From: a virus | Taxonomy: Duplodnaviria; Heunggongvirae; Uroviricota; Caudoviricetes | Virus record (IMG/VR): IMGVR_UViG_2734482773_000007 | Length of the DNA: 42,304 bases | Direction: 5' to 3' (one strand) | In this document: positions 262-469 of the stretch, in pieces | Numbering within the stretch: position 1 is the first letter of the stretch | Layout: each line of letters starts with the position of its first letter | Notes under the pieces: model-generated | What the model was told of the DNA's origin: nothing | The model's input: the letters and a program-made list of their open reading frames with translations, nothing else | Databases searched by the model: none | Made by a program: the position numbers and the translations under genes

Positions 262-469
262 TTCAATGTATTACCGTTAAATCATTTTAAAATCAGTAAG
301 TTGTATCGAGTTTATATGCTTTACTGTCATTAACTTACTGTATGTTGATCCAGTGTATTTAACCTTGATAAACTCAGTCCAGCAACACAAAACCGCAACA
401 CATTGCATTTTGTCCCGTAGAAAAGACTTGTATGTGTGAGCTTGTTTTCTGCGCCTACGCAGATAAGGA

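What the first reader, a model, noticed from the sequence alone, without database searches (positions are those of the whole stretch)
262..469. Prophage left junction next to yfhL; attachment site not resolved
The host gene yfhL ends at 261 and the integrase starts at 470, so attL must lie in this AT-rich 208-bp interval. I could not identify the core direct repeat because the right junction is probably beyond the window (AT-rich cargo continues to the last base).
Basis: inference. Interest (0 to 1): 0.35.

Follow-up and report, generated by a model that had tools for sequence, protein, structure and literature searches.

The report
Prophage attachment site inside yfhL
This is an ordinary prophage left junction, but the crossover site is an 18-base stretch inside the host ferredoxin gene yfhL (window 214-231), not in the gap before the integrase, and that gap is phage DNA carrying the integrase's likely control and binding sites.

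Summary
The coordinates in the observation are correct. yfhL occupies 1-261 (-). The integrase ORF opens at 470, but its real start is ATG 476. The interval 262-469 is AT-rich (35.6% GC against 49.3% for the window).

A comparison of attB, attL, attR and attP puts the common core at window 214-231 (TTCACACATATCACAATT), inside yfhL, in the codons for N-C-D-M-C-E. Bases 232-261, the first 10 yfhL codons, are phage-borne. They rebuild the gene as [10 protein letters not shown] instead of the native MALLITKKCI. The whole interval 262-469 is phage DNA, the P' arm of attL.

Across 14 genera this arm keeps:
- an IHF-like site (291-303);
- a LexA-box-like palindrome (336-355);
- tandem CAACACA repeats (383-389 and 396-402), also present in the P arm;
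- an inverted copy of the core's left part (431-439).

Three relatives place it about 206-213 bp past the last base.

A homologous integrase (76% identity) with a 23-bp repeat in the same ferredoxin gene is published for Serratia phage vB_SspS_OS31. This is therefore a new member of a known kind and of low interest. The conserved LexA-like box is the only mildly unusual feature.

The parts
1..261 (-). Chimeric yfhL ORF (86 aa, 2x[4Fe-4S] ferredoxin). Codons 11-86 are host DNA and codons 1-10 are phage DNA.
   Evidence: ORF list; Fer4 Pfam hits; RefSeq annotation of the identical sequence; comparison with the empty site.
1..213 (.). Host (B) arm of attL, the body of yfhL.
   Evidence: Matches all 5426 complete E. 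coli genomes. Over the 120 bp before the core printed it is identical to the K-12-type empty site.
214..231 (.). Common core (O) TTCACACATATCACAATT. On the minus strand it encodes N-C-D-M-C-E, which includes cysteine ligands of the first Fe-S cluster.
   Evidence: It is the only block shared by attB (three E. coli lineages), attL (window), attR (L001, L003) and attP (L025, L035). The megablast match of the attP contigs to the window starts exactly at 214.
232..261 (-). Phage-borne surrogate 5' end of yfhL (start codon plus 9 codons, [10 protein letters not shown]).
   Evidence: Identical in the attP contigs; 20 of 30 bases match native yfhL. The ORF stays in frame at all 16 yfhL-adjacent loci examined. 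Variable columns by codon position are 6, 2 and 9.
262..475 (.). Non-coding P' arm of attL. This is the finding's interval extended to the int start codon.
   Evidence: Matches the attP contigs L025 and L035 with one or two differences each; 34-36% GC; no Rfam family match.
291..303 (+). IHF-consensus-like site AATCAGTAAGTTG, preceded by an A/T tract.
   Evidence: Matches WATCARNNNNTTR (8 matches in the window against 3.6 expected). The AATCA and TT positions are nearly invariant in 14 genera. Binding is inferred.
336..355 (.). LexA-box-like palindrome TACTGTATGTTGATCCAGTG (CTG-N10-CAG).
   Evidence: Scores 18.8 bits with a PWM of 15 E. coli LexA boxes recalled from memory (training range 13.3-25.8). 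It is the best hit in the 42.3-kb window; the next best scores 9.5. A site sits at the same aligned position in 14 relatives, scoring 10.7-21.8. The consensus taCTGTatatatatACAGta is quoted in PMC5101192. Binding is not tested.
345..374 (+). Candidate int promoter: -35 TTGATC (345-350), 18-nt spacer, -10 TAAACT (369-374). The LexA-like box overlaps the -35.
   Evidence: Read from the sequence. The -10-like hexamer is kept in 9 of 14 relatives. It falls below the stringency of the promoter scan. Inference only.
383..402 (+). Two tandem CAACACA repeats (383-389 and 396-402, 13 bp apart); candidate arm-type integrase sites P'1 and P'2.
   Evidence: Nearly invariant in 14 genera. The same motif occurs twice directly and once inverted in the P arm of attP and attR. 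AACACA occurs 6 times in the 523-bp L025 attP, 5 of them shared with the E. coli attR arm (L003), against 0.38 per kb in the window. Binding is inferred.
431..441 (-). Conserved block (T)ATGTGTGAGC. Bases 431-439 are an inverted 9-nt copy of core bases 215-223 (TCACACATA). Possibly an extra core-type integrase site near the int start.
   Evidence: Highest column identity of the arm, 93%. CACACAT occurs on the minus strand at 432. Function unknown.
476..1873 (+). Tyrosine integrase (465 aa).
   Evidence: PF00589; phrog_1 integrase, 1.6e-26; sub-threshold Arm-DNA-bind_3, E=0.075; 76% identical to the Serratia phage OS31 integrase.
1870..2070 (-). Small HTH protein, candidate excisionase, convergent with int.
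   Evidence: HTH_17 25.8 bits against a cut-off of 27; PHROG excisionase families; its counterpart in OS31 is annotated as excisionase.

Best explanation
Window 1-475 is the attL (B-O-P') junction of a roughly 42.3-kb temperate phage. Its tyrosine integrase recombines an 18-bp core, TTCACACATATCACAATT, that lies inside the 5' part of the host ferredoxin gene yfhL at window 214-231.

The phage attP carries a look-alike of the first 10 yfhL codons with a start codon, immediately to the right of the core. Integration therefore swaps the gene's 5' end and leaves an intact 86-aa ORF. The native 5' end is left as a remnant at attR, next to yfhH.

The finding's interval, 262-469, is entirely phage DNA and forms the P' arm. 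The most likely mechanism is of the lambda type. Int binds the tandem CAACACA arm repeats (383-402, with three more copies in the P arm), IHF bends the DNA at 291-303, and Int is bridged to the core. The same arm also holds the int promoter, because int reads away from attP and no upstream phage operon points into it. A conserved LexA-box-like palindrome (336-355) overlaps the best candidate -35, which suggests that int is SOS-inducible.

Shown here: the core, the phage origin of 232-469, and the conservation of the blocks. Inferred: which proteins bind them, the promoter, and the LexA control.
For: Occupancy. All 5426 complete E. coli genomes carry yfhL. In all 38 empty-site rows of a 40-row sample spread down the ranking, homology to the window stops at 251. 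160 genomes carry at least 80% of window 1-700, that is, this integrase.

Empty site. In K-12-type, EC958 and AST85 genomes the match to the window is exact through 231; beyond that, 20 of the 30 bases at 232-261 match.

attR. Two occupied relatives, C11 (L001) and DETEC-P1056 (L003), repeat the 18-mer 86 bp before the yfhH stop, followed by the native yfhL 5' end.

attP. Two metagenome contigs show the excised form. L025 joins window 41122-42304, then 213 bp, then the core, then window 214-3871. L035 has the same join.

Lineage. In 16 of 17 genome loci across Enterobacterales, integrase homologs (58-99% identity) sit about 214 bp from a yfhL start in the same arrangement. The phage-borne codons stay in frame at all 16 yfhL-adjacent loci, with a coding-type substitution pattern.

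Conserved blocks in the arm are described.

Published precedent. Serratia phage vB_SspS_OS31 is mitomycin-inducible and has a 23-bp flanking repeat, TCGCACATGTCGCAGTTGATGCA, in a host 2x[4Fe-4S] ferredoxin gene (PMC7556043). That repeat aligns to window 215-237 with 17 of 23 bases identical.
Against: - The true right flank of this particular window was not available. The source genome is not among complete RefSeq E. coli genomes (best match 91% coverage), so attR is inferred from relatives that are 96.9-99.9% identical at the right end.
- The exact strand-exchange positions within the 18 bp are unknown, and no clear inverted core-type half-sites were seen.
- The arm-binding domain of Int is only a sub-threshold Pfam hit (E=0.075).
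- The promoter scan found no promoter in 262-469 on either strand at its stringency.
- No conserved promoter for the chimeric yfhL was found, so its expression in lysogens is unproven.
- In 6 of the 14 relatives (Serratia twice, Erwinia twice, Providencia and Pantoea sp. B65) the left half of the LexA-like box reads GTGT or TTGT instead of CTGT.
- The LexA PWM was built from sites recalled from memory.
Confidence: 0.85

Rival explanations
1. One reading: yfhL is entirely host DNA, and the crossover core lies somewhere in the intergenic interval 262-469.
For: The ORF boundaries and the low GC of the interval make this a natural guess from sequence alone.
Against: The interval is nearly identical to the attP-form contigs, which carry no host DNA there, and shows no similarity to the empty site. 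Identity with attB ends at 231. No part of 262-469 is repeated at attR in the relatives.
Confidence: 0.02
2. The junction is at 251/252, where BLAST matches to empty-site genomes stop, so only the last few yfhL codons are phage-derived.
For: Every empty-site row listed ends at query position 251.
Against: The stretch 232-251 matches attB only partly and matches attP exactly. The BLAST end point is local-alignment extension through the phage-borne look-alike. attR and attP diverge from attL and attB respectively at exactly 213/214 and 231/232.
Confidence: 0.03
3. The 336-355 palindrome is not a LexA operator. It is a site for a phage factor of the int module (excisionase or Int), or simply promoter DNA, and int is not SOS-controlled directly.
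For: Six of the 14 relatives lack the C of the CTG half-site. The right half, CAGT(G/A)T, and the neighbouring TGATAAAC are conserved beyond what a LexA box needs. The OS31 authors annotated a LexA site elsewhere in that phage but not here.
Against: It is the single outstanding LexA-PWM hit in 42 kb (18.8 bits against 9.5 for the next) and scores within the range of genuine sites. It is kept in phages with unrelated immunity and structural modules: OS31 is a siphovirus with a lambda-like switch, while the window phage has a tail sheath. That favours a host factor or an int-module factor over the immunity repressor.
Confidence: 0.4
4. The element is a decayed, immobile prophage remnant, so the att sequences are relics without current function.
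For: Relatives carry pseudogenes: a portal gene with an internal stop in L003, and truncated tail-fibre and recombinase fragments. OS31 itself produced no properly assembled particles (PMC7556043).
Against: In the window int is a full-length ORF. The core is perfect at both ends in the relatives. Excised attP-form contigs 98% identical to the window exist in two metagenomes. OS31 DNA was recovered after mitomycin C treatment.
Confidence: 0.1

Closest known systems
Integration module of Serratia phage vB_SspS_OS31 (MT843276; Bujak et al. 2020, PMC7556043)
   Same: The integrase is 76% identical over its full length. A convergent small HTH excisionase gene follows int. Integration is into the 5' part of the host 2x[4Fe-4S] ferredoxin gene. 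The published 23-bp flanking repeat aligns with window 215-237 (17 of 23 identical, every difference a G in OS31 where the window has A). The conserved P'-arm blocks are the same.
   Different: The host is E. coli. Core identity is 18 bp rather than 23, because here the phage copy diverges from the host right after AATT. The rest of the phage is unrelated: it has a tail sheath and a PolA, DUF2800 and VapE replication module, whereas OS31 is a lambdoid siphovirus. The paper did not describe the surrogate gene end, the arm repeats or the palindrome.
Phage lambda attP/attL architecture (P' arm with H' IHF site and P'1-P'3 arm-type sites next to int)
   Same: The order is core, IHF-like site, tandem direct repeats, int. 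The same repeat motif occurs in both arms. An excisionase gene lies beside int.
   Different: The integrase is a divergent 465-aa protein with only a weak P4-type arm-domain signal. The arm repeats lie about 150-170 bp from the core, further than in lambda. The core is inside a protein-coding gene. int has its own promoter region in the arm. No protein binding has been tested.
Phages that integrate inside protein-coding genes and restore them with a phage-borne copy (for example phage 21 and e14 in icd; own knowledge)
   Same: The core lies in a conserved coding segment, and the phage carries a diverged duplicate of the displaced gene end, so the ORF stays intact.
   Different: Here the 5' end is replaced, including the start codon, the ribosome-binding region and any promoter, rather than the 3' end. 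Expression of the chimeric gene therefore depends on phage DNA, and that was not demonstrated. Bobay et al. 2013 (PMC3603311) listed yfhL among genes 'disrupted' by prophages, which this anatomy qualifies.
LexA-repressed recombinase promoters (integron intI genes; own knowledge)
   Same: A CTG-N10-CAG palindrome overlaps the putative promoter of a tyrosine recombinase gene.
   Different: This is a phage integrase, not an integron integrase. The site is predicted only, and it is degenerate in several relatives.

Membership tests
Tyrosine-integrase prophage attachment site (attL = B-O-P') | A tyrosine recombinase gene adjacent to the junction | tested here: met
   PF00589 30.4 bits against a cut-off of 27.1; phrog_1 integrase 1.6e-26.
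Tyrosine-integrase prophage attachment site (attL = B-O-P') | A short identity block shared by attB, attP, attL and attR, with arm exchange on either side | tested here: met
   18 bp at window 214-231. attB comes from three E. coli lineages, attR from two relatives and attP from two metagenome contigs. The attR of the window's own genome was not available.
Tyrosine-integrase prophage attachment site (attL = B-O-P') | Element excises and integrates at this site | not testable with these tools
   Indirect only: attP-form contigs, and mitomycin C induction of the homologous phage OS31 (PMC7556043).
Lambda-type heterobivalent integrase system | Repeated arm-type sites in both the P and P' arms, distinct from the core | tested here: met
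   CAACACA-type motif: two tandem copies in P', two tandem plus one inverted copy in P. Nearly invariant across 14 genera. Binding by Int is not tested.
Lambda-type heterobivalent integrase system | N-terminal arm-binding domain in the integrase | tested here: inconclusive
   PF13356 Arm-DNA-bind_3 scores only 13.6 bits (E=0.075, cut-off 27) at residues 58-107. The OS31 authors report this domain in their homolog.
Lambda-type heterobivalent integrase system | IHF site between core and arm sites | tested here: inconclusive
   There is a consensus match at 291-303, conserved in relatives. The pattern alone is weak (8 in the window against 3.6 expected), and binding is untested.
Lambda-type heterobivalent integrase system | Excisionase (recombination directionality factor) | tested here: inconclusive
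   66-aa HTH protein: HTH_17 25.8 bits against a cut-off of 27; TIGR01764 excisionase E=0.0077, below its cut-off; PHROG excisionase families 1e-5 to 7e-5.
yfhL (ferredoxin gene)-targeting integrase lineage of phage OS31 | Integrase homologous to the OS31 integrase | tested here: met
   76.3% identity over residues 1-464.
yfhL (ferredoxin gene)-targeting integrase lineage of phage OS31 | Insertion in the 2x[4Fe-4S] ferredoxin gene at the homologous position | tested here: met
   The core is homologous to the OS31 23-bp repeat. 16 of 17 genome loci with an Int homolog have yfhL in the same position.
LexA (SOS) operator | 20-bp palindrome taCTGTatatatatACAGta with invariant CTG-N10-CAG | tested here: met
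   TACTGTATGTTGATCCAGTG at 336-355 scores 18.8 bits and is the top hit in the window. The consensus is quoted in PMC5101192. The PWM sites were recalled from memory.
LexA (SOS) operator | Conserved in orthologous positions | tested here: inconclusive
   A site is present at the same aligned position in 14 relatives, but 6 of them have GTGT or TTGT in the left half, and scores fall as low as 10.7 bits.
LexA (SOS) operator | LexA binding and SOS-dependent transcription | not testable with these tools
   Needs a gel shift or footprint and a reporter assay in lexA mutants.

The most novel reading that the evidence does not exclude
The P' arm of this widespread int-att module carries a genuine LexA operator over the int promoter. 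Integrase synthesis would then respond directly to the host SOS response, independently of whichever immunity module the mosaic phage carries. Because the phage also replaces the 5' end and upstream region of yfhL, a conserved host ferredoxin gene would be placed under phage-supplied, possibly SOS-linked, control in every lysogen.
Probability: 0.3. Interest if true: 0.35.

Novelty: new member of a known kind. Interest (0 to 1): 0.15.

Why it matters
The main value is practical. The result fixes the true prophage boundaries: core at 214-231, with attR about 206-213 bp beyond the window. It shows that gene-boundary prophage calls at this locus include 213 bp of host DNA on the left and drop the phage P arm on the right. 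It also shows that prophages at yfhL rebuild the gene's reading frame rather than truncating it, which qualifies earlier listings of yfhL as a prophage-disrupted gene (whether the rebuilt gene is expressed was not shown). This int-att module is present in about 3% of complete E. coli genomes (160 of 5426) and across Enterobacterales. yfhL has also been reported as an insertion site of Stx2b prophages, although I did not test whether those prophages carry this integrase. A defined 18-bp core helps with typing and with empty-site PCR. The possible SOS control of int is a modest, testable lead.

Tried and rejected
- I searched the window for a second copy of any part of 101-480. Only chance matches of 15 nt or less were found, and the 18-mer occurs once. 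attR is therefore not in the window.
- I looked for the window's exact source among complete E. coli genomes. The best hit covers 91% at 98.6% identity, so the real right flank could not be read and relatives were used instead.
- A megablast of 150-1900 against the phage collection found nothing. Only a protein search found OS31.
- An NCBIfam search gave no family for the integrase, and a PDB sequence search gave no meaningful hit.
- Rfam found no RNA family in 1-700. The ORFs on the minus strand of the interval (277-513 and 330-578) were judged spurious because they overlap the int start and the region is poorly conserved.
- The promoter scan found nothing in 262-469. A conservation-based hunt for a minus-strand promoter for the chimeric yfhL found only a -35/-10-like pair 8 nt apart, which is not usable. 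The yfhL promoter remains unidentified.
- A second candidate int promoter was considered: -35 TTGATA at 365-370 with a -10 at 388-393 overlapping the first arm repeat. I did not prefer it for E. coli, because CAAAAC lacks the final T.
- I looked for inverted core-type half-sites around the 18-mer and found none that were convincing.
- A literature search for LexA-controlled phage int promoters at attP found no direct precedent.

Full report
**What is in the sequence**

The minus strand of window 1-261 is an 86-aa ORF with 4Fe-4S dicluster ferredoxin domains. RefSeq annotates the identical sequence in E. coli C11 as yfhL. A 465-467-aa ORF with a tyrosine-recombinase catalytic domain follows on the plus strand (PF00589, 30.4 bits against a cut-off of 27.1; phrog_1 integrase).

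The first possible start of that ORF is TTG at 470. The real start is ATG at 476. The ATG is invariant in the 15-sequence alignment, follows AAGGA at 465-469, and is the annotated start.

The interval 262-469 has 35.6% GC against 49.3% for the window, which is in the lowest 4% of 208-bp windows. The observation as a description is therefore correct.

**Where the junction is**

All 5426 complete E. coli genomes match the start of the window, and 160 match at least 80% of window 1-700, meaning they carry this integrase at yfhL. In a 40-row sample spread down the ranking, all 38 empty-site rows stop at position 251.

Read base by base, empty sites from three lineages (K-12 type, ST131 EC958 and AST85) are identical to the window through position 231. 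Beyond that, 20 of the 30 bases at 232-261 match.

Two occupied relatives, C11 (L001) and DETEC-P1056 (L003), repeat TTCACACATATCACAATT, which is window 214-231. The second copy sits 86 bp before the yfhH stop codon and is followed by the native yfhL 5' end.

Two IMG/VR metagenome contigs show the excised form. L025 runs from window 41122-42304, through 213 bp absent from the window, to the 18-mer, and then through window 214-3871. L035 shows the same join.

This gives the classical four-way pattern. attB and attL share the left side, attP and attR share the other left side, attL and attP share the right side, and attB and attR share the other right side. Only the 18 bp are common to all (alignments A2 and A3). 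The core is therefore at 214-231, inside yfhL, 31 bp to the left of the finding's interval.

**The surrogate gene end**

On the coding strand the core reads AAT TGT GAT ATG TGT GAA, encoding N-C-D-M-C-E, part of the first cluster-binding motif.

Bases 232-261 are phage DNA that encode [10 protein letters not shown], where the native gene has MALLITKKCI. Integration therefore keeps an intact 86-aa ORF. At all 16 yfhL-adjacent loci examined, the phage-borne ten codons keep a start codon and the frame. Variable columns by codon position number 6, 2 and 9, which is the pattern expected for coding constraint.

Bobay et al. 2013 listed yfhL among genes disrupted by prophages (PMC3603311). The anatomy here shows replacement of the 5' end rather than truncation. 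Whether the chimera is expressed is unknown. I found no conserved leftward promoter in the arm.

**The right junction**

The 18-mer occurs only once, and nothing from 101-480 recurs in the window.

The window ends at ...ttctgcgcat, the start codon of an 88-aa minus-strand ORF. In L001, L003 and L025 that ORF start is followed by 205, 206 and 213 bp respectively before the core. The prophage is therefore about 42.3 kb from core to core.

I could not read the window's own flank. No complete E. coli genome matches the window fully.

**What the interval 262-469 is**

It is the P' arm of attL. Integrase homologs (58-99% identical) in Kluyvera, Citrobacter, Shimwellia, Sodalis, Pantoea, Symbiopectobacterium, Serratia, Providencia and Erwinia lie about 214 bp from a yfhL start in 16 of 17 genome loci. 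Aligning 14 of these arms amounts to a phylogenetic footprint. The conserved blocks, in window coordinates, are:

- **IHF-like site.** AATCAGTAAGTTG at 291-303 matches WATCARNNNNTTR and follows an A/T tract.
- **LexA-like palindrome.** TACTGTATGTTGATCCAGTG lies at 336-355.
- **TGATAAACTC** at about 365-374.
- **Arm repeats.** Tandem CAACACA at 383-389 and 396-402.
- **Inverted core copy.** ATGTGTGAGC at 432-441 is the most conserved block (93% column identity). Bases 431-439 are an inverted 9-nt copy of core bases 215-223.

The CAACACA motif recurs twice directly and once inverted in the P arm. AACACA occurs 6 times in the 523-bp L025 attP (5 of them shared with the E. coli attR arm of L003), against 0.38 per kb in the window. 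This is what arm-type integrase sites look like.

Int shows only a sub-threshold arm-domain hit (PF13356, E=0.075), although the OS31 authors report that domain in their homolog.

**The LexA-like box**

I built a position weight matrix from 15 E. coli LexA boxes recalled from memory and symmetrised it. The site at 336-355 scores 18.8 bits, within the training range of 13.3-25.8. It is by far the best hit in the 42.3-kb window; the next best scores 9.5. The consensus taCTGTatatatatACAGta is quoted in PMC5101192.

A site sits at the same aligned position in all 14 relatives, scoring 10.7-21.8. In six of them (Serratia twice, Erwinia twice, Providencia and Pantoea sp. B65) the left half reads GTGT or TTGT.

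The box overlaps the -35 of the best candidate int promoter (TTGATC, 18 nt, TAAACT, at 345-374). int must have its own promoter here. It reads away from attP, the adjacent excisionase-like gene and the early-left genes converge on it, and in the circular phage the genes on the other side of attP are on the opposite strand.

The palindrome is retained in phages with unrelated immunity and virion modules, the OS31 siphovirus and this sheath-tailed phage. That argues for a host factor or an int-module factor rather than the immunity repressor. I rate true LexA control at roughly 0.3-0.5.

**Comparison with what is known**

Serratia phage vB_SspS_OS31 (MT843276) has an integrase 76% identical to this one. 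Its authors reported mitomycin C induction and a 23-bp flanking direct repeat, TCGCACATGTCGCAGTTGATGCA, located in a host ferredoxin gene with two 4Fe-4S clusters (PMC7556043). That repeat aligns with window 215-237 (17 of 23 identical), and every difference is a G in OS31 where the window has A.

In E. coli, yfhL is already listed as a prophage site (PMC3603311) and as an insertion site of Stx2b prophages (PMC10675304, PMC12029490).

The overall architecture resembles lambda attL: core, IHF site, tandem arm sites, int. The restoration of the gene resembles phage 21 and e14 at icd (own knowledge), except that here it is the 5' end that is replaced.

**Verdict**

This is an ordinary, well-behaved prophage attL and a new E. 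coli member of a known int-att lineage.

Interest is low (0.15). The conserved LexA-like box and the inverted core copy next to the int start are the only features that merit a small follow-up.

Noticed in passing
window 5172-5933 (-): A TIR-domain protein sits in the early-left operon. It matches Pfam CAP12/Pycsar TIR (2.9e-31) and the PADLOC candidate defence family PDC-S35 (6.8e-109). It is probably a prophage-borne anti-phage defence gene.
   Followed up: partly
window 3425-4495 (ORF 3525-4442, -): A 305-aa ORF with only a weak PADLOC TIR-effector hit (1.1e-6) and no Pfam family. In relatives L001 and L003 this segment is replaced by an unrelated 798-nt gene on the other strand, so it looks like a cargo-exchange hotspot between the helicase and VRR-NUC genes.
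   Followed up: partly
window 432-473 (+): The most conserved block of the P' arm (ATGTGTGAGC) opens a 13-codon mini-ORF (MCELVFCAYADKD) that stops 3 nt before the int ATG. Short ORFs starting at the same ATG exist in several relatives but not in Providencia. It could be a leader peptide or a coincidence.
   Followed up: partly
window 294-302 and 332-340: A perfect 9-bp inverted repeat, CAGTAAGTT / AACTTACTG, links the IHF-like site to the left edge of the LexA-like box. Its meaning is unknown, and the intervening 304-335 is poorly conserved.
   Followed up: no
window 40492-42304: An AT-rich right-end cargo region (35-42% GC) on the minus strand. It holds a hexapeptide acetyltransferase (40492-41037), a 215-aa protein with no family, and an 88-aa protein of PHROG 17793. 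In the circular phage these genes lie just across attP from int.
   Followed up: partly
window 1 and 42304 (the window boundaries): The window starts at the yfhL stop codon and ends at the start codon of the last ORF. Dozens of IMG/VR prophage contigs have int at position 476 in the same way. Such gene-boundary prophage calls include 213 bp of host DNA and omit the roughly 206-bp phage P arm and attR.
   Followed up: yes
L014 (Raoultella scottii contig), 1-1500: An integrase 90% identical to the window's is not preceded by yfhL or by the conserved P' arm. It may be a recombinant or a differently placed copy.
   Followed up: no
L021 (Serratia phage OS31) 42096-42117: The record annotates a LexA site upstream of a DinI-like gene right next to attP on the P-arm side. 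In that relative both sides of attP may therefore carry SOS boxes.
   Followed up: no
L015 (E. coli ECMA0423) about 1100-1290: The yfhL ORF next to the prophage is frameshifted by a 1-bp deletion just after the core. It could be a real inactivation or a long-read sequencing error.
   Followed up: no
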